IMG/VR virus record: IMGVR_UViG_3300033997_000170
Location: 1-38,617 of that record
DNA length: 38,617 nt
Strand: one strand, 5' to 3'
Source: a virus
Shown: piece after piece, positions 32,892-38,617 of the stretch
Numbering within the stretch: the stretch's first letter is position 1
How the letters are laid out: every line of letters begins with the position of its first letter
The notes under the pieces: model-generated
What the model was told of the DNA's origin: nothing
Database searches by the model: none
The model's input: the letters and a program-made list of their open reading frames with translations, nothing else
Translations under genes and position numbers: made by a program

Positions 32892-33037
32892 AGCACGTTT
32901 CCTCTCGATGGTGGTCGCATGTGGGGTTTCCCACATTCTCAACATATAGAGAAAAAACGCAATTAGATTTCGTTATTTAGAGTGCCAATGCTCGGCATAT
33001 CTAAGGACAATAAGCAATGGATTGAGGAGGAGATTCC
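32892..33037. promoter_or_regulatory. Immunity switch region: AT-rich divergent promoter/operator region between the early operon and cI, with the palindrome ATGTGGG-N4-CCCACAT at 32919-32936
   Basis: It is markedly AT-rich compared with the rest of the window, contains dyad symmetries, and is flanked by divergent genes. Confidence 0.55.
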
Positions 33038-33703
33038 ATGTCACGCGACTACCGAATAGGCGCAGCCATAAGGAAGCGGCGGCAAGCCCTTGGCTGGGGC
33101 CTACAAAGACTGATCGACGCGGCCGGGGGCGATATGTCCACCGGCTATCTGTCGACCCTAGAAACGACGGACGTCGCCCCGAGCGTCTACGTCGCCGACA
33201 ACCTGGCAAAAGCCCTGGGCACGTCCGTGGATACGCTCCTGGCCGAGGCCCGCGACCCTGACAGCATCACACCGCCGGGCGAGCCGGCCCAGCGGGTTCC
33301 GCTGATCGCCTGGGAAATGGCCGCAGAATGGGCACGTAACCCCGACGCCAAGCGCCTGCCGGCGGGCACCTGCTGGATCATGCCGAGCGAAACGCCACCG
33401 GGGAGGGTGTTCGCCCTGGTCGTGCGCGACGAGCTCATGCAGGCGCCGACCGGGGTCAGCTTCCCGCGGGGCTACACCATTTTCGTCGACCCGATGCGCA
33501 AGGCGGCGCCTGGTGACTTCATCATCGGGCACCTGGGGGATCCGGCCTCGCCGGTCTTCAAGAAGCTGACCAGAGACGGCGCCATGCTCTACCTGCGCGC
33601 CCTGAATCCGCAGTTTCCGATGCAGCAGGTTGGTGATACTTTCGAGGTCGTCGGGGTCGTCGTAGGAGTGCGGGCGACGTTCGACAAAGGAGAGGTTCTA
33701 TAA
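33038..33703 (+). CDS. cI: Lambda CI-like repressor (XRE HTH + S24 LexA-like C-terminal domain) lacking the Ser nucleophile
   Basis: C-terminal LMQAPTGVSFPRGYTIFVDP...PGDF...FKKLTRDG...LNPQFPM aligns to lambda CI [23 protein letters not shown]...FKKLIRDS...LNPQYPM. Confidence 0.85.
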   Translation: MSRDYRIGAAIRKRRQALGWGLQRLIDAAGGDMSTGYLSTLETTDVAPSVYVADNLAKALGTSVDTLLAEARDPDSITPPGEPAQRVPLIAWEMAAEWARNPDAKRLPAGTCWIMPSETPPGRVFALVVRDELMQAPTGVSFPRGYTIFVDPMRKAAPGDFIIGHLGDPASPVFKKLTRDGAMLYLRALNPQFPMQQVGDTFEVVGVVVGVRATFDKGEVL

Positions 33704-33746
33704 AAAGAGATCGCCGGGCTTCAATATTTTGAGATTCCGGCTTACA

Positions 33747-33785
33747 GTAGCGGCGCTTTCCCGCTACGAATTTTGATTTTGCAAG
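33747..33785 (+). terminator. cI terminator (GTAGCGG/CCGCTAC + GAATTTTGATTTTG)
   Basis: 7-bp stem followed by a T-rich tail. Confidence 0.55.
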
Positions 33786-33790
33786 GGGCC

Positions 33791-33833
33791 AGAAAAGGAA
33801 AAGGCCAGGGGGCTTTAGCAACCCCCCGGCCTT
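33791..33833 (-). terminator. Minus-strand intrinsic terminator (12-bp stem AAGGCCGGGGGG/CCCCCTGGCCTT + TTCCTTTTCT)
   Basis: The T-rich tail is present only on the minus strand. Confidence 0.5.
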
Positions 33834-33930
33834 CACGATTGACGGCACCAACAACCGGGCACCTTCACCGAGCACAAACGTTTGATCTGTTTAGCGGGCA
33901 GACAAACGAAAACCGAACTTGTCCAGTTCA
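33791..33930 (-). ncRNA. Candidate ~140-nt leftward small RNA, from promoter TTGACG-N16-TAAACT (33964-33937) to the terminator at 33791-33833
   Basis: Good sigma70 hexamers on the minus strand, a unidirectional terminator, and no credible ORF. Confidence 0.3.
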
Positions 33931-33965
33931 GTGCTCAGTTTAGACCCGGCTGGTGGTGCGTCAAT

Positions 33966-33998
33966 CGTTTGTACCTTTTCGCCTTTGTACTTTTGGCC
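33966..33998 (+). promoter_or_regulatory. Dispersed motif site C: CGTTTGTACCTTTTCGCC + TTTGTACTTTTGGCC, ending 12 nt before the repA ATG
   Basis: 15 of 16 identity with site A, and matches sites B and D. Confidence 0.5.
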
Positions 33999-34009
33999 AA
34001 AGGGATAAA

Positions 34010-37000
34010 ATGACAAACGTACCACAGGGCAAGGGGCTAGGGGCCTTCTACAAAGAGCGATTCAACGCCGACCCATACGCCCTCGCCGACTACTGCTACG
34101 ACCAGATTTCCGACGCTGCCGCCGAGGCCTATGTCGACTGGTCGTCGGTCTGCAACGCCGTCCACTACAACGGCGAGCGCCTGAAGAAGTACTCGAAGGT
34201 CAAGATCAAGGCCACCGTCGAGAAGTACAACGGCAAGGTCATGGTCTGGGGCGACATTCGCACCGCCCGCGGTACCGACAAGCTCGCGCCCTTCGACTAC
34301 CCCACCCTTACCTTCTCGAACAACGCCGCCAACCCCAGCACATGGTCGGGCCTGGCCGCCCTGGCCGAGATCTACGAACGCGAGGGCGGCAAGCTCACCG
34401 ACGCCCGCCACCTCGAGTGGAAACAGCGCCAGGAGCAGCGCCGCGCCGAGCGCGAAGCGCGCAAGCTCGAAGACGAGCGCCAGGCCCGCGAGAAGGCCGA
34501 ACGGATCCACGCCGAGCGCCTTGCCTATGACCGCGCCTGGCTGACTGGCGAGACCTGCACCTTCCTCTATGAGCACGGCGACCAGATCCGCGAGGGCACG
34601 GTCGAAGTGATCGGCCCCGAGGATGGCACCGCGCCGTACCTGGTCAAGAAACAGGTCGGCGCCATCGCGTCACGCTTCAAAATGCAGCGTATGCGTGACC
34701 GTCACGGTGTATTCACGGCGGTGCCGATGCACGACATCGACGGCAACTTCCTGGGCCTGCAGCGCCTCTATGCCGACAAGAAACTGCAGGGCACCGGGGT
34801 GAAGATGGACGGCGCGCATTGCGTCCTGGGCGACCTCGAGAACGCCAAGCGCCGCTACTCGGCCGAGGGCTTCGCGACCGGCGCCAGCATCTACCTGGCA
34901 GAGCTCGAGGCCGGCCGCGGCGACGAGGTCGCCGTGGTCATCGCGTTCAACGTCGACAACCTGCTCAAGGTGCTGCGCGCCTACGCCAAGCGCTACCCCG
35001 CCTGGCGCTTCCACAACGCCGCCGACAATGACCAGTGGAAAGACGGCAACGCCGGCCTGCTGGCCGCGCTCGAGATCCACCGCGACCTTCACCACCAGGG
35101 CATCGTCCCGAACTTTGCCGCCCACCTCGAGCTGCTCGAGTGCAGCGCCCAGGCAATCGCCGAGCTCAGAGCCCAGAACAGGGCGCCCGTGATCGGCTTC
35201 TGCGCCGAGGAGCTCGCCGCCTTCAAGGCCGCGGGCAAAGGCCCCACCGACTGGAACGACTACCACTGCCTGTTCGGCCTCGAGGCGACTGCCAAGGCCC
35301 TGCGCGCACGCGACAGCGTGTTCCGTGCGGAAAAGGACTGGTTCGCCTACTGCCTGCAGCGCCTGCAGTACAGCGGCAAGCGCCTGGGCGAGAAGAACGC
35401 CATGGCCGCGGTGGCGGCCGGCATGATGCTCTCCCCGATCAAGTACAGCTACGACCAGGTCGTGCAGGCGATCCTCAAGGCACTGCCGGCAGCCGTCGAC
35501 AGCACCAGCCGCTTCAAGATCCGCAGCCGCGCCCACTGGCTGGCCAAGCAAAAGCTGCAGCAGGCGCGCCAGCTGCGCGGCTTCTCCAGCGCAGCGCTGG
35601 CCAAGCCAAACGTGCAGCACCTCAGCATCGAGGGAGTGCGAGCCGCGCACGGTGGCATCGAGCTGCCGGCGCACATGGCCGCCCTGGTCGAATCGCTCGA
35701 GGGCGTCATCATCGTGCGCGCGCCGATGGGCTCGGGGAAAACCGAGAAGCTGATCGCGCCGCTGATGCAGGCCTCCAGCCGTGCCGCCTACGTTGCGCAC
35801 CGGATCTCGCTCCTCGATGACGCTGCCGCCCGCCTGGGCGTCGAGCACTACAAACAGGTCTTCGCCTGGCAGATGCAGCACGTCTCGCACCTGGCCTGCT
35901 GCGTCAACAGCCTGACCAAGCCCATGTTCTACAACGCCGAGGAGCGCAGCTGGTTTACCACCCTCGAGACGCTGTGCATCGACGAGGCCAGCCAGGTGCT
36001 GCGCCACACCACCACCGGCCCGGTCGAGGGTCGGGTCAAGGTCATGGATGCGCTGATCGACGCCGTCGGCGCCGCCAAGCGCGTGCTGCTCTGCGACGCC
36101 GACGCCAACGACAGCCTGATCGAGTTCTGCGAGCTCGCCCGCCCAGGCGAGACGATCACCATCCTCGAGGTCGGCGGATCCGCCGAGCACATCCGCATCG
36201 ACCACGCCGAGGACGAGGCCGTCTGGCAGCTGGCGATCGACAACGTGAAGGCCGGCAAGCGCGTGCTGGTCGCCAACGACTCGGCCGAGTCGGCCAAGAA
36301 AATGGCCGCCCTGATCGAAGCCATGGTCGAGGAGGGCGAGATCAAGCCCGTGCGCATGCTCCTGGTACACGCCGACAGCAAGGCCGACCAGGACGTCGAG
36401 GCCTTCCTATGCAACCCCAACGCCGAGGCGATCAAGTACGACGTGCTGATCTATTCGCCCGCGATCTCCTCGGGCGTGTCGATGACCACCCCGCACTTCG
36501 ACGCCCACTTCGGCCTGTTCAGCGGTAACACGGTCGGCCCGTCCGACGCCGTGCAGATGCTGCGCCGCGACCGCACAGCCCGCCACTACGTGATCGGCAT
36601 CGGCCACACCAGCGCCCAACGCGAAACCGACCGGGAGAAGATCTGGCGCGGCCACATGAAGGCCGACGAGGTCGCCTGCGAGTTCGAGGAGACCAGCGAG
36701 GAGATCATCCTGCGCCGTCGCAAGACCGCGTTCGACCACCTCTACCTGGCCACCGTCACCGCCGAGAACGCGGCCCGGAACAACTTCGCCAACAACCTGC
36801 TGCTGATGCTCTACGCCGACGGCTACAACGTGCAGCGCCTCGACATCGCCGGCCTGGGCTACGACGAGGAGGCCCTCACTAAGGAATCGCGCAGCAACCG
36901 CAAGGTGGCCGGCGCGATCGTGTTCGACAAGCGCATGGATCTGATCGAGAGCGTCCAGACGCCCGACGAGGAGCAGTTCCTCAAGCTCAGCCGGCAGGAG

Positions 37001-37894
37001 GTGCGCAGCGAGGCCGAGAGCGCCCAGCTCGACCGCTACCACATCGAGCACCAGCTCGGCGTCGACGAGATCACCGCCGACGACGTGGCCTTCTACGATG
37101 ACCGCGGCATTTCCAAGGTGGTGGCCATGGAGCTGCTGCAGGCCGACGAGGAGCAGGCCAGGAACTACGACAAGGCGCAGCGCAAGGCGAAGGTAACCCT
37201 CACCCTGCACCGCTGGAAAACGCCCGCGCACGCGCTCCTGGGGCGCGTCTTCGAGATCCTCGGCGTCGATCGCTTCACGGGCGAGGGCGAGTTCACCTCA
37301 GAGCAATGCCGCCAGGTGCTCGAGTACCTCACCACCAGCGCCGACCAGGTCGAGCTCTACAACGCCCTCAAGCTGGGGCGCTACATCCCCAGCACCAGCG
37401 CGCGCATGTGCGCCACTACCCTGGTCAAGTCGATTTTCGAGCGCCTCGGCCTCGCTATCACAAAGCGCAAGACGAACGGTGTGCACTTGTTCTCAGTAAA
37501 CCCGGACAATTGGCAGTTCATCATGGCCTATTGCCAGCGACGCGCAGCGAAGAACGTCCACTCGCTGACCACCCACGAGCACGACGCGGCCCACCAGCCC
37601 AAGCTCGCGCCAGAGCCCCAGGCAGACGCCCAGGCCACGCCTGGCGCGGCTTCCAGCGACAGGGATACTTTGCAGTGTGATGGTGTAAGCGAGAGTGGAA
37701 AGTATCCCTTGAGCGTGCGGGAGAGGATCTTCGCCGTTGCTTCTCGCTTCGCCGCACCCGCCGGTATCTCGCTGACGCGACTCGTGGGGGCGCTGACGCC
37801 AGAGGTGGCGGGCAGCCTGGCCAAGCCGGGAGCGGAGCAGAGCCGAACGCTAGGGTTCACCCTTGCGTATGCGGCCAAGCTGCTGCGATCCTAG
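34010..37894 (+). CDS. repA: N15 RepA-like multifunctional replication protein (TOPRIM primase + helicase, 1294 aa)
   Basis: Primase-like EGFATGASIYLA...AFNVDNL...ADND. Walker A APMGSGKTEK and Walker B LCIDEASQ. Size and position match N15-type phages. ATG at 34010 preferred over GTG at 33953. Confidence 0.8.
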   Translation: MTNVPQGKGLGAFYKERFNADPYALADYCYDQISDAAAEAYVDWSSVCNAVHYNGERLKKYSKVKIKATVEKYNGKVMVWGDIRTARGTDKLAPFDYPTLTFSNNAANPSTWSGLAALAEIYEREGGKLTDARHLEWKQRQEQRRAEREARKLEDERQAREKAERIHAERLAYDRAWLTGETCTFLYEHGDQIREGTVEVIGPEDGTAPYLVKKQVGAIASRFKMQRMRDRHGVFTAVPMHDIDGNFLGLQRLYADKKLQGTGVKMDGAHCVLGDLENAKRRYSAEGFATGASIYLAELEAGRGDEVAVVIAFNVDNLLKVLRAYAKRYPAWRFHNAADNDQWKDGNAGLLAALEIHRDLHHQGIVPNFAAHLELLECSAQAIAELRAQNRAPVIGFCAEELAAFKAAGKGPTDWNDYHCLFGLEATAKALRARDSVFRAEKDWFAYCLQRLQYSGKRLGEKNAMAAVAAGMMLSPIKYSYDQVVQAILKALPAAVDSTSRFKIRSRAHWLAKQKLQQARQLRGFSSAALAKPNVQHLSIEGVRAAHGGIELPAHMAALVESLEGVIIVRAPMGSGKTEKLIAPLMQASSRAAYVAHRISLLDDAAARLGVEHYKQVFAWQMQHVSHLACCVNSLTKPMFYNAEERSWFTTLETLCIDEASQVLRHTTTGPVEGRVKVMDALIDAVGAAKRVLLCDADANDSLIEFCELARPGETITILEVGGSAEHIRIDHAEDEAVWQLAIDNVKAGKRVLVANDSAESAKKMAALIEAMVEEGEIKPVRMLLVHADSKADQDVEAFLCNPNAEAIKYDVLIYSPAISSGVSMTTPHFDAHFGLFSGNTVGPSDAVQMLRRDRTARHYVIGIGHTSAQRETDREKIWRGHMKADEVACEFEETSEEIILRRRKTAFDHLYLATVTAENAARNNFANNLLLMLYADGYNVQRLDIAGLGYDEEALTKESRSNRKVAGAIVFDKRMDLIESVQTPDEEQFLKLSRQEVRSEAESAQLDRYHIEHQLGVDEITADDVAFYDDRGISKVVAMELLQADEEQARNYDKAQRKAKVTLTLHRWKTPAHALLGRVFEILGVDRFTGEGEFTSEQCRQVLEYLTTSADQVELYNALKLGRYIPSTSARMCATTLVKSIFERLGLAITKRKTNGVHLFSVNPDNWQFIMAYCQRRAAKNVHSLTTHEHDAAHQPKLAPEPQADAQATPGAASSDRDTLQCDGVSESGKYPLSVRERIFAVASRFAAPAGISLTRLVGALTPEVAGSLAKPGAEQSRTLGFTLAYAAKLLRS

Positions 37895-37902
37895 CGCCGT
37901 GG

Positions 37903-37922
37903 TACTGTACAAACAACCAGTA
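37903..37922. promoter_or_regulatory. LexA-box-like palindrome TACTG-N10-CAGTA (CTGT-N8-CCAG)
   Basis: TACTGTACAAACAACCAGTA compared with the gammaproteobacterial SOS box TACTGTATATATATACAGTA. A consensus TTGACA hexamer lies at 37931-37936. Confidence 0.45.
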
Positions 37923-37972
37923 ATGGCCGATTGACACAAGGGGAGGGAAGTACCTTGCAATGCCGTGAAAAG

Positions 37973-38218
37973 ATGGACAGAGCGTCCGCCAAACTCAGCC
38001 GCGCCAGGTCGGCGCTAACGCTGGCCATGAAGGCCGGCCCCGAGGCAACCAAGGGCGAGCTGCTGGACGCAGTCCTAGCCGCCCTCGAGCACATTGATGC
38101 CGCCGACGCGGCCCTGGGAGATGAGGAAACGCGAGCAGGTCGGCCGGGGCATATAGCCCCGGCGACCGAGGCAGGTCACCCGCGGCTAGTCGTCGCCGCC
38201 ACCTGCAGCGCCTCGTAA
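37973..38218 (+). CDS. Small orphan protein (81 aa from the ATG; 87 aa if TTG at 37955 with the GGGAGGG SD is used) in the repA-tel locus; candidate antirepressor
   Basis: High third-position GC over the first ~45 codons and predicted helical character. Its 3' end overlaps the convergent protelomerase gene by 43 nt. Confidence 0.4.
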   Translation: MDRASAKLSRARSALTLAMKAGPEATKGELLDAVLAALEHIDAADAALGDEETRAGRPGHIAPATEAGHPRLVVAATCSAS

Positions 38219-38617
38219 GCTGCAGCCCGGTCGGCCCCCTCACCGCGCGCCACCTCGACGCCATTCACGCGGGCCACCGCCACCCACTTGCCGCTGGATA
38301 CCTCGCTGACCGAGATCCGCGGCTTAGCTTTCACCACCTCAGCCGGTACAGCCGGGGCGATCTCCTCGACAGGTCGCGCCGGACTGGCAAGCGCCTCGGC
38401 CGCCAGCTCGAGATACTCCTTGATGACCGGGCGATAGCTGCCGACATTGGTCGCGATCGCCTTCTGCGAGATCCGCGCCTCGGGCGCCGCCTTCACGGTC
38501 TCTTTCACCCAGCGGTGGATCTTCTGCATCGCCTCGCGGCCGGCGATCTGCTCGTGCTCGTCCAGGGCCTCGAGCGCCTCGAGGCGGCTGCCGTATTTGC
38601 TGGCCGGCGCCGCCGGC
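38176..38617 (-). CDS. tel: Protelomerase C-terminal part (continues from position 1 across the circular junction)
   Basis: ...EAMQKIHRWVKETVKAAPEARISQK... is in frame with the minus-strand ORF at 1-1359. 1359 + 315 = 1674 nt is divisible by 3. Confidence 0.8.
   Translation of the reverse strand, partial: PAAPASKYGSRLEALEALDEHEQIAGREAMQKIHRWVKETVKAAPEARISQKAIATNVGSYRPVIKEYLELAAEALASPARPVEEIAPAVPAEVVKAKPRISVSEVSSGKWVAVARVNGVEVARGEGADRAAAYEALQVAATTSRG

What the first reader, a model, noticed from the sequence alone, without database searches (positions are those of the whole stretch)
37895..38218. LexA-box-like site and orphan small ORF in the repA-tel locus: candidate SOS-controlled antirepressor
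- **Seen:** Between the repA stop (37894) and the convergent protelomerase stop (38176) there is only one small ORF of 81-87 aa. It has high third-position GC and looks helical.
- **Seen:** It is preceded by TACTGTACAAACAACCAGTA (37903-37922). This satisfies the CTG-N10-CAG core, with perfect TACTG/CAGTA ends, of the gammaproteobacterial LexA box. A consensus TTGACA hexamer follows at 37931-37936.
- **Established:** In N15 the antirepressor AntC is LexA-controlled. In VP882-type linear plasmid phages the repA-tel locus carries small antirepressors (Qtip) with their sensors.
- **Inference:** The CI-like repressor of this phage appears unable to self-cleave (separate finding). So this ORF is the best candidate for the induction trigger, here wired directly to SOS with no phage-encoded transcription factor. 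I recognise no similarity between the protein and any known family.
Basis: partly seen in the sequence, partly recalled or inferred. Interest (0 to 1): 0.7.

Follow-up and report, generated by a model that had tools for sequence, protein, structure and literature searches.

The report
SOS-wired small antirepressor candidate, Qtip position
A Pseudomonas aeruginosa linear-plasmid prophage carries one host LexA (DNA-damage) operator, placed just ahead of a conserved 87-residue gene where related phages keep their repressor-inactivating protein; this is probably how a phage whose repressor cannot cut itself still senses DNA damage.

Summary
TACTGTACAAACAACCAGTA (37903-37922) is the only LexA-type site in the 38.6-kb window (0.01 expected by chance). 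The same box sits at the same place in about 50 related phiHAP-1/VP882-like loci.

- **The box belongs to the ORF.** It lies 42-62 nt upstream of an 80-98 aa ORF with a strong ribosome-binding site. Its distance to the repA stop varies from -7 to +107 nt.
- **The ORF is a real gene.** It runs 37955-38218 with a TTG start. It has dN/dS 0.22 over the first 57 codons and 22 database homologues. The predicted fold is a two-helix hairpin with a disordered tail.
- **It occupies the Qtip position.** It lies between convergent repA and tel and overlaps the tel 3' end.
- **No sensor gene, and a dead repressor.** All box-bearing loci lack a transcription-factor gene. Their CI repressors have lost the Ala-Gly cleavage site; in the window the catalytic Ser is also Leu. 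VP882 keeps a cleavable cI and has no box.
- **The small protein tracks cI.** Its identity follows cI identity, not RepA or Tel.

Not upheld: the TTGACA hexamer is not conserved.

Antirepressor activity and LexA binding are inferred, not shown. No significant homology to Qtip, the presumed N15 AntC or any curated family was found.

Verdict: a new variant of a known kind.

The parts
33038..33703 (+). CI-like prophage repressor (HTH plus degenerate S24 domain), the proposed target of the small protein
   Evidence: - Pfam Peptidase_S24 (E 7e-13) and HTH_31.
- Aligned with lambda CI, LexA and VP882 cI: the cleavage site Ala-Gly is Ala-Ala, the catalytic Ser is Leu, and the Lys is kept.
33953..37894 (+). 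repA (primase/helicase-type replication protein); the true start is probably ATG 34011
   Evidence: - 51% identical to phiHAP-1 RepA and 46% to VP882 RepA.
- RefSeq names it 'plasmid replication protein, CyRepA1 family' in a 98% identical P. aeruginosa plasmid.
37903..37922 (.). LexA (SOS) operator TACTGTACAAACAACCAGTA
   Evidence: - Unique in the window, 0.01 expected.
- Scores 20.8-24.5 bits, with the next best site below 5.
- Present in about 50 of 51 distinct related short-gap loci; their consensus is TACTGTATAAATAAACAGTA.
- Core information 1.88 bits per position, against about 0.4 in the flanks.
37901..37908 (+). Candidate -10 element overlapping the left arm of the box (GGTACT or TACTGT, preceded by TG at 37899-37900)
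   Evidence: - 41 of 43 distinct relatives have A at the position of 37902. This gives GATACT, TATACT, AATACT or TACACT.
- phiHAP-1 has TTGACC, 18 nt, then TACTGT.
- The window itself has G at 37902.
- This is inference. The consensus promoter scan found nothing in 37700-38400.
37931..37936 (+).
   Evidence: - Not conserved in close relatives, which read TTAAAC, TTCAAA, TCGACC, TAAACA or TAGACA at this place.
- A -10 placed 17 nt after it would cover the SD and start codon.
37940..37948 (+). Shine-Dalgarno sequence GGGGAGGGA
   Evidence: - Conserved in all family-A relatives, 6 nt upstream of the TTG start.
37955..38218 (+). Small ORF, 87 aa, TTG start. Residues 1-58 (37955-38128) form a two-helix hairpin; residues 59-87 form a variable disordered tail.
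   Evidence: - 22 homologues at 49-98% identity.
- dN/dS is 0.22 in the first 57 codons and 0.57 in the tail. The other frames show stops and ratios above 1.4, except the antisense frame in codon phase with the ORF (0.30, 2 stops).
- AF2 pLDDT is about 90 for helices 2-26 and 33-55, and below 50 for residues 62-87.
- hhalign links it to the sister families at the same locus (probability 94-95%).
38139..38168 (.). GC-rich hairpin GGTCGGCCGGGGC-ATATA-GCCCCGGCGACC just downstream of the tel stop; probably the tel terminator, read through by the small ORF (codons 62-71)
   Evidence: - (dG -21 kcal/mol).
- The same arrangement is seen in several other families (L013, L016, L030, L053) and in VP882 qtip, where a T-run follows on the tel strand.
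- It encodes the 'PGxxAPA' motif of the tail.
38176..38617 (-). 3' part of the protelomerase gene (tel); runs off the window end and overlaps the small ORF by 43 nt
   Evidence: - tblastn against Tel of relatives.
- Relatives' full genes hit Pfam ResT-TelK_cat and TelK_N.
- RefSeq annotates 'protelomerase family protein'.

Best explanation
The window is a phiHAP-1/VP882-like linear-plasmid prophage of Pseudomonas aeruginosa.

**Proposed mechanism**
1. In the lysogen, host LexA binds the single operator at 37903-37922. This operator overlaps the -10 region of a promoter at the very end of repA.
2. LexA binding keeps the 87-aa gene (37955-38218) silent. Its weak TTG start further limits basal expression.
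3. DNA damage activates RecA and LexA cleaves itself. The gene is then transcribed.
4. Its two-helix-hairpin product binds and inactivates the phage CI-like repressor. That repressor has lost the Ala-Gly site and the catalytic Ser, so it cannot respond to RecA itself.
5. The lytic promoter is de-repressed.

This is the Qtip slot of the repA-tel locus, with the phage-encoded sensor replaced by the host SOS repressor.

**Status of each step**
- Shown by sequence and comparison: the operator, its conservation, its linkage to the ORF, the coding status of the ORF, the synteny with qtip, the degenerate repressor, and the co-variation of the small protein with cI.
- Inferred: LexA binding, the position of the promoter, and the repressor as the target.
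For: - **Operator.**
  - It is unique and high-scoring.
  - It is conserved at the homologous place in phiHAP-1, in 9 metagenomic relatives and in about 50 of 51 distinct loci from IMG/VR.
  - The relatives' consensus is essentially the canonical gammaproteobacterial LexA box.
- **Linkage to the ORF.** The distance from the box to the start codon is 42-62 nt across all families. The distance from the box to the repA stop varies from -7 to +107 nt.
- **Real gene.** There are 22 homologues, dN/dS is 0.22, and the SD and start are conserved.
- **Synteny.** VP882 qtip and phiHAP-1 gp35 lie at the same place and also overlap the tel end. Qtip and other repA-telN small ORFs inactivate cI experimentally (bioRxiv 10.1101/2019.12.16.877910 and PMC10432266).
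- **Repressor state.**
  - Every box-bearing locus lacks Ala-Gly. Many also lack the Ser or the Lys.
  - VP882 cI keeps all three, is RecA-cleavable, and has a transcription factor instead of a box.
- **Co-variation with cI.**
  - At equal RepA identity (62-68%), loci split into two groups: cI 70-75% with small ORF 60-68%, and cI 47-50% with small ORF 23-28%.
  - Partial Mantel r is 0.40, p = 5e-4.
- **Precedent.** LexA-controlled antirepressors paired with non-cleavable repressors are known: 186 Tum, N15 AntC and the Gifsy antirepressors GfoA/GftA (PMC3121763).
Against: - No binding or expression data exist.
- No consensus sigma-70 promoter is detected.
- The window's own -10-like hexamer is the weakest of the set: GGTACT, with G where 41 of 43 relatives have A.
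- No terminator separates repA from the ORF, so repA read-through could also express it.
- There is no significant sequence similarity to Qtip (hhalign E 0.006-0.1), to the presumed N15 AntC (E 0.03-0.09) or to any Pfam, PHROG, NCBIfam or PDB family.
- Helical hairpins are structurally non-specific.
- Some box-bearing repressors keep both Ser and Lys (families B and F, L004), so loss of cleavage there rests only on the changed Gly.
- The co-variation test cannot fully separate function from linkage. A residual correlation with RepA (0.32) remains.
Confidence: 0.62

Rival explanations
1. The gene is LexA-controlled, but its product has another target. Candidates are RepA or protelomerase (switching from plasmid maintenance to lytic replication), cell division (SulA/Icd-like), or RecA/LexA themselves (DinI- or gp7-like).
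For: - The gene lies between the replication and telomere-resolution genes and overlaps tel.
- Its identity also correlates with RepA after controlling for cI (partial r 0.32).
- There is no homology to a proven antirepressor.
Against: - It sits in the position of Qtip and of other repA-telN small ORFs that act on cI.
- It strictly co-occurs with repressors lacking the cleavage site.
- It tracks cI more strongly than Tel (partial r 0.40 against 0.03).
- A non-cleavable repressor needs some SOS-linked inactivator, and this gene follows the only LexA site in the genome.
Confidence: 0.22
2. The LexA site does not mainly control the small ORF. It acts on repA or tel instead, for example as a roadblock to repA read-through or as the control of an antisense or convergent transcript. 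The ORF would be expressed independently.
For: - The box abuts or overlaps the repA stop in most loci (offsets -7 to +22).
- The box is palindromic, so it has no orientation.
- No clear promoter is detected.
Against: - In family F and in L050 the box lies 40-107 nt beyond the repA stop, yet keeps its 42-62 nt spacing to the ORF start.
- A conserved A just upstream of the box gives a rightward -10-like hexamer.
- No conserved leftward feature was seen.
Confidence: 0.1
3. The box and the ORF are chance features of a GC-rich intergenic region and have no function.
For: - GC-rich genomes carry many spurious ORFs.
- The bare CTG-N10-CAG core is not enriched in the window.
Against: - 0.01 full sites are expected by chance.
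- The box and the ORF are conserved across about 50 loci down to 50% RepA identity.
- Purifying selection acts on the ORF.
Confidence: 0.01

Closest known systems
Qtip (VP882 gp55) and the TF-smORF modules of linear plasmid-like phages (Silpe & Bassler 2019; Silpe et al. 2023, PMC10432266)
   Same: - Same slot between convergent repA and telN, same strand, about 80-90 aa, with the 3' end overlapping tel.
- The ORF reads through the tel terminator hairpin.
- The predicted fold is a helical hairpin. Qtip's predicted structure appears among the Foldseek hits (TM 0.53/0.58), but not significantly.
- Qtip is an experimentally shown cI antirepressor.
   Different: - No divergently transcribed transcription-factor or sensor gene; a host LexA operator takes its place.
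- The partner cI is non-cleavable here, whereas VP882 cI is autoproteolytic.
- The module is expected to be the SOS pathway itself, not an SOS-independent one.
- No significant sequence homology.
- Silpe et al. 2023 explicitly set aside phages with non-proteolytic repressors.
LexA-controlled antirepressors: N15 AntC, coliphage 186 Tum, Gifsy GfoA/GftA
   Same: - Same logic: a non-cleavable repressor plus a small antirepressor gene under a LexA box (PMC3121763; PMC4488713).
- N15 is also a telomere phage.
- The presumed N15 antC ORF shares the motifs C-E-K-L-D and A-S-P-E-A-S with the window family's C-x-E-K-M-D and A-G-P-E-A-T.
   Different: - In N15 the LexA box and ORF lie at 39.56-39.83 kb, between genes 47 and 48, not between telN and repA.
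- The profile comparison is not significant (E 0.03-0.05, probability 1-2%).
- The window protein matches no Pfam family. From background knowledge, Tum is larger and carries a DinI-like half, and the Gifsy proteins are unrelated.
phiHAP-1 gp35 (HAPgp35, 'hypothetical protein')
   Same: - Same slot, 95 aa, preceded by TACTGTATACTTGAACAGTA directly after the repA stop.
- Its repressor lacks Ala-Gly and the catalytic Lys.
   Different: - Sequence similarity is only marginal: hhalign E 1e-3, probability 20%, with a colinear alignment.
- No function has been reported for it in the papers searched.

Membership tests
Gammaproteobacterial LexA operator (SOS box) | 16-bp palindrome CTGT-N8-ACAG with an A/T-rich spacer, usually flanked by TA...TA | tested here: met
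   - The site is TACTGTACAAACAACCAGTA. The right arm is CCAG, as in several E. coli boxes.
- It scores 20.8 bits on an E. coli-box matrix, whose training median is 21.4.
- That matrix was recalled from memory.
Gammaproteobacterial LexA operator (SOS box) | Conserved at orthologous positions while surrounding non-coding sequence diverges | tested here: met
   - About 50 of 51 distinct loci carry it.
- Core information is 1.88 bits, against 0.36-0.42 in the flanks.
- My search pattern forced positions 3-5 and 16-18, and partly 6 and 15. Positions 1, 2, 7, 19 and 20 were free and still match the consensus.
Gammaproteobacterial LexA operator (SOS box) | Overlaps or adjoins the promoter it represses | tested here: inconclusive
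   - A -10-like hexamer nATACT overlaps the left arm in 41 of 43 loci.
- phiHAP-1 has TTGACC, 18 nt, then TACTGT.
- The scan tool found no promoter in the window, and the window's own hexamer is GGTACT.
Gammaproteobacterial LexA operator (SOS box) | Bound by host LexA and de-repressed on DNA damage | not testable with these tools
   This needs EMSA or footprinting, and reporter or RNA-seq experiments.
LexA-controlled antirepressor systems (Tum / AntC / Gifsy type) | The cognate repressor is not RecA-cleavable | tested here: met
   - By sequence only: Ala-Gly is Ala-Ala and Ser is Leu in the window.
- Ala-Gly is absent from all box-bearing loci.
LexA-controlled antirepressor systems (Tum / AntC / Gifsy type) | A small gene directly downstream of a LexA box, outside the immunity region | tested here: met
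LexA-controlled antirepressor systems (Tum / AntC / Gifsy type) | The protein binds the repressor and blocks operator binding | not testable with these tools
- The only indirect support is the co-variation with cI.
LexA-controlled antirepressor systems (Tum / AntC / Gifsy type) | Sequence homology to a characterised antirepressor | tested here: not met
   - No Pfam, PHROG, NCBIfam or PDB hit.
- Against the presumed N15 AntC family, E is 0.03-0.05.
Qtip / TF-smORF modules of linear plasmid-like phages | Small ORF between convergent repA and telN | tested here: met
Qtip / TF-smORF modules of linear plasmid-like phages | A divergently transcribed phage transcription factor activates the small ORF | tested here: not met
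   - The repA-tel gap is 281 nt in the window and 260-430 nt in relatives, with no room for another gene.
- VP882-type loci have gaps of about 1060-1175 nt.
Qtip / TF-smORF modules of linear plasmid-like phages | Sequence homology to Qtip | tested here: not met
   - hhalign against Qtip gives E 0.006 (probability 6%) with the family-A profile and E 0.099 (probability 0.6%) with the broader profile.
- BLASTP gives only an 8-residue match.
Qtip / TF-smORF modules of linear plasmid-like phages | The partner cI is autoproteolytic, so the module is an SOS-independent second input | tested here: not met
   The repressor lacks the cleavage site and the Ser nucleophile, and the ORF has a LexA box.
Autoproteolytic S24 repressors (lambda CI / LexA), applied to the window's CI | Ala-Gly scissile bond, Ser nucleophile and Lys general base | tested here: not met
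   The window has Ala-Ala, Leu and Lys.

The most novel reading that the evidence does not exclude
One ancient, fast-evolving lineage of helical-hairpin antirepressors occupies telomere phages. It would include the window family, its sister families at this locus, phiHAP-1 gp35, Qtip and perhaps N15 AntC. Its input has been rewired repeatedly between host LexA and phage-borne sensors, in step with loss or retention of cI autoproteolysis. In other words, the 'SOS-independent' TF-smORF modules and the classical LexA-antirepressor circuit would be two states of one evolving device.
Probability: 0.3. Interest if true: 0.7.

Novelty: new variant of a known kind. Interest (0 to 1): 0.55.

Why it matters
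- **It fills a stated gap.** The study that defined the small-ORF modules of linear plasmid-like phages set aside phages with non-proteolytic repressors (PMC10432266). Here those phages show a simple, uniform solution: the same slot holds a small gene wired to host LexA.
- **It gives a testable induction mechanism.** The prophage family is common in clinical P. aeruginosa. The exact protein occurs on 145 contigs, and RefSeq plasmids from human isolates are 98-99% identical.
- **It defines a new protein family.** The family has at least four detectably related subfamilies. It is annotated as hypothetical, or is missing from the gene table held for one RefSeq plasmid.
- **It offers a natural series for evolutionary study.** About 43 cognate cI and small-protein pairs could be used to study specificity and how regulatory input is rewired.

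Tried and rejected
- **TTGACA (37931-37936) as the -35.** Rejected. It is not conserved, and its -10 would fall on the SD and start codon.
- **ATG 37973 or TTG 37931 as the start.** Rejected in favour of TTG 37955. The SD spacing is conserved, and residues 1-6 are conserved in 22 homologues.
- **The box as a cI operator.** No similar sequence lies in the cI-upstream or cI-repA intergenic regions.
- **Other LexA sites in the window.** None found.
- **Antisense ORF 37891-38094.** It is the codon-phase shadow of the real frame, and it carries 2 stops among the 19 aligned relatives.
- **Homology searches that gave nothing.**
  - Pfam, PHROGs, NCBIfam and PDB by sequence.
  - Foldseek against BFVD and PDB: no hit with E below 0.4.
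  - The exhaustive HMMER search added only 5 cluster representatives.
- **N15 comparison.**
  - There is no box between telN and repA.
  - The only box is near genes 47/48, followed by an unannotated 75-aa ORF that I take to be antC.
  - The Mardanov & Ravin 2007 paper could not be read.
  - Profile comparison of that family with the window family is not significant.
- **Literature.** No paper in the library describes LexA control at this locus, nor induction of a P. aeruginosa linear-plasmid prophage. A search for the published Pseudomonas LexA box string found nothing, so the match to the host motif rests on background knowledge.

Full report
**1. What is in the sequence**

repA ends at 37894 and the convergent reading frame ends at 38176. 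That frame is the 3' part of a protelomerase gene. It aligns with Tel of relatives, whose full-length genes hit Pfam ResT-TelK_cat and TelK_N.

TACTGTACAAACAACCAGTA lies at 37903-37922 and TTGACA at 37931-37936. One frame stays open up to the stop at 38216-38218.

The full TACTG-N10-CAGTA pattern occurs once in the window, with 0.01 expected. The bare CTG-N10-CAG core is not enriched. With position matrices the site scores 20.8 bits (E. coli SOS boxes, recalled from memory) and 24.5 bits (boxes of relatives, own site left out). Nothing else in the 38.6 kb exceeds 5 bits. The phage therefore has exactly one LexA-type site.

**2. What the element is**

RepA is 51% identical to that of Halomonas phage phiHAP-1 and 46% to that of Vibrio phage VP882.

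The host is Pseudomonas aeruginosa:
- The exact small protein occurs on 145 contigs and is deposited as 'hypothetical protein' from P. aeruginosa.
- Two P. aeruginosa plasmid records from human isolates are 98-99% identical over 33000-38617.
- One of them, deposited as a 77-kb circle, carries two inverted tel genes. This is what a head-to-head assembly of a 38.5-kb hairpin-ended linear prophage would look like. Its gene table lists nothing between repA and tel.

**3. Synteny with Qtip**

In VP882 the repA-telN interval holds vqmA-Phage and, next to telN, qtip. Qtip is 79 aa, on the same strand as repA, and overlaps the telN end.

In phiHAP-1 the interval holds only gp35 (95 aa) in the same position. 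Directly after the repA stop comes TACTGTATACTTGAACAGTA. The window has the phiHAP-1 layout.

**4. The operator is a phylogenetic footprint**

I collected two sets of related loci:
- Nine relatives found through the small protein.
- 54 loci found in IMG/VR with a Tel profile.

Every distinct locus with a short repA-tel gap (about 260-430 nt) has a CTGT-N8-(A/C)CAG box. The exceptions are one CTGG...CCAG variant and one contig with a deletion.

The consensus of 51 distinct loci is TACTGTATAAATAAACAGTA. Information content is 1.88 bits per core position, against about 0.4 in the flanks. My search pattern forced part of the core. Positions 1, 2, 7, 19 and 20 were not forced and still match the LexA consensus.

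The box lies 42-62 nt (median 53) upstream of the small-ORF start. Its offset from the repA stop varies from -7 to +107 nt. It therefore belongs to the ORF, not to repA.

Of the long-gap loci (about 1060-1175 nt; a transcription factor plus small ORF in VP882-type loci), four distinct ones have no box: L002, L060, L061 and L067. L065 has a box-like site at +58.

**5. The promoter**

Its -10 would fall on the ribosome-binding site.

Instead, 41 of 43 distinct loci have an A just before the 20-mer. This gives GATACT, TATACT, AATACT or TACACT overlapping the left arm of the box. phiHAP-1 has TTGACC, 18 nt, then TACTGT.

This placement would let LexA occlude the -10. It is inference, because the consensus scan found no promoter. 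The window is the one locus with G at that position (37902).

**6. The ORF is a gene**

- There are 22 homologues at 49-98% identity, all 80-113 aa.
- SD GGGGAGGGA and the TTG start at 37955 are conserved, as is the N-terminus MQC(R/Q)EK.
- Over 19 distinct sequences, the first 57 codons give dN/dS 0.22. Variable sites by codon position are 30, 25 and 52, and there are no stops.
- The other frames give ratios above 1.4 with many stops. The exception is the antisense frame in codon phase (0.30, 2 stops).
- The tail gives dN/dS 0.57.
- AlphaFold2 predicts helices 2-26 and 33-55 at pLDDT about 90, and a disordered tail from residue 62.
- The tail reads through a GC-rich hairpin (38139-38168) that lies just downstream of the tel stop. 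In the window, several other families and VP882 a comparable hairpin sits at about codons 59-73. In VP882 it is followed by a T-run on the tel strand. The recurrent 'PGxxAPA' motif is simply its translation.

**7. Family relations**

The small ORFs at this slot fall into several families. Profile comparison links the window's family to two of them (probability 95%, E 2e-8; probability 94%, E 9e-8). The link to the phiHAP-1 family is only marginal (E 1e-3, probability 20%). There is no significant link to Qtip.

No Pfam, PHROG, NCBIfam or PDB family matches. Foldseek finds only non-specific helical hairpins. Qtip's predicted structure is among them without significance.

**8. The repressor**

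The window's CI-like protein has HTH and S24 domains. When aligned with lambda CI, LexA and VP882 cI, Ala-Gly is Ala-Ala and the catalytic Ser is Leu. The Lys is kept.

Across all box-bearing loci the Gly is never present. The Ser is often Leu, Gly, Thr or Ala. In the phiHAP-1 group the Lys is Arg.

VP882 cI keeps all three. It is cleaved in a RecA-dependent way, and G92D, S130A and K172A are the cleavage-site and catalytic-site variants used to test it (bioRxiv 10.1101/2019.12.16.877910).

**9. Co-variation**

At equal RepA identity to the window (62-68%), loci split into two groups. One has cI at 70-75% and the small ORF at 60-68%. The other has cI at 47-50% and the small ORF at 23-28%.

The partial Mantel correlation of small-ORF distance with cI distance, controlling for RepA and Tel, is 0.40 (p = 5e-4). 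With Tel it is 0.03 and with RepA 0.32. This supports a functional tie to cI but does not prove one.

**10. Comparison with what is known**

LexA-controlled antirepressors paired with non-cleavable repressors are established for 186 Tum, N15 AntC and the Gifsy prophages (PMC3121763, PMC4488713).

In N15 the only LexA-type box lies at 39564-39579, outside the telN-repA interval. It is followed by an unannotated 75-aa ORF that I take to be antC. Its conserved C-E-K-L-D and A-S-P-E-A-S motifs resemble those of the window family. The profile comparison is not significant.

Small-ORF antirepressors at the repA-telN slot are established for VP882 and other phages. In those cases a phage transcription factor controls them, and the partner cI is cleavable. 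The authors set aside phages with non-proteolytic repressors (PMC10432266). They list phiHAP-1 and a Pseudomonas plasmid among their loci, but neither the paper nor its supplements discuss LexA control of this locus.

**11. Verdict**

The gene is a LexA-repressed small gene in the Qtip slot. It is most likely the SOS-triggered antirepressor of a repressor that cannot cleave itself.

It is a new variant of a known kind, not a member of any described family. I put LexA control at about 0.85 and the full mechanism, including cI as the target, at about 0.6.

Noticed in passing
L069 4563-4829 (NC_001901.1 39562-39828): - Of the N15 regions scanned (record 24000-46375), the only CTGT-N8-ACAG box that is a LexA-type palindrome is followed by an unannotated 75-aa ORF, presumably antC.
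- Its invariant motifs CEKLD and ASPEAS resemble CxEKMD and AGPEAT of the window family.
- hhalign is not significant (E 0.03-0.05).
   Followed up: partly
window 37902: - The window has G where 41 of 43 distinct relatives have A. This includes a 98% identical phage, L015.
- That A would be the key second base of a -10-like hexamer overlapping the LexA box.
- The window copy may therefore have a weaker promoter.
   Followed up: partly
window 38139-38168: - The GC-rich tel terminator hairpin lies inside the small ORF (codons 62-71).
- It imposes the recurrent 'PGxxAPA' peptide motif.
- VP882 qtip has the same arrangement.
- If the hairpin also terminates rightward transcripts, the ORF's mRNA would lack a stop codon.
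   Followed up: partly
L070 (NZ_CP096940.1 36684-40373): - A RefSeq P. aeruginosa plasmid deposited as a 77-kb circle carries two copies of the same protelomerase protein in inverted orientation.
- This is consistent with a head-to-head assembly artefact of a 38.5-kb hairpin-ended linear prophage.
- The small ORF is not in its gene table.
   Followed up: no
L061 / L062 (IMG/VR), repA-tel gap of 1073 nt: This locus has a long gap with extra genes and a small ORF, no LexA box, and a cI lacking both Ala-Gly and the catalytic Lys. It may be a phage with no direct SOS input at all.
   Followed up: no
L058 (IMG/VR, phiHAP-1-like): A deletion or misassembly removes the LexA box and the N-terminal half of the gp35-like ORF.
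   Followed up: no
window 33953-34030: - repA more likely starts at ATG 34011 (MTNVPQGKG...) than at the GTG 33953 listed mechanically.
- A 22-nt imperfect inverted repeat (33966-33987 and 33998-34019) and TTTGTAC(C/T)TTT direct repeats flank that start. They may be a regulatory site.
   Followed up: no
window 37955 and relatives: The TTG start codon is conserved throughout families A and C (22 of 43 distinct loci). This is consistent with selection for low basal translation of an induction trigger.
   Followed up: partly
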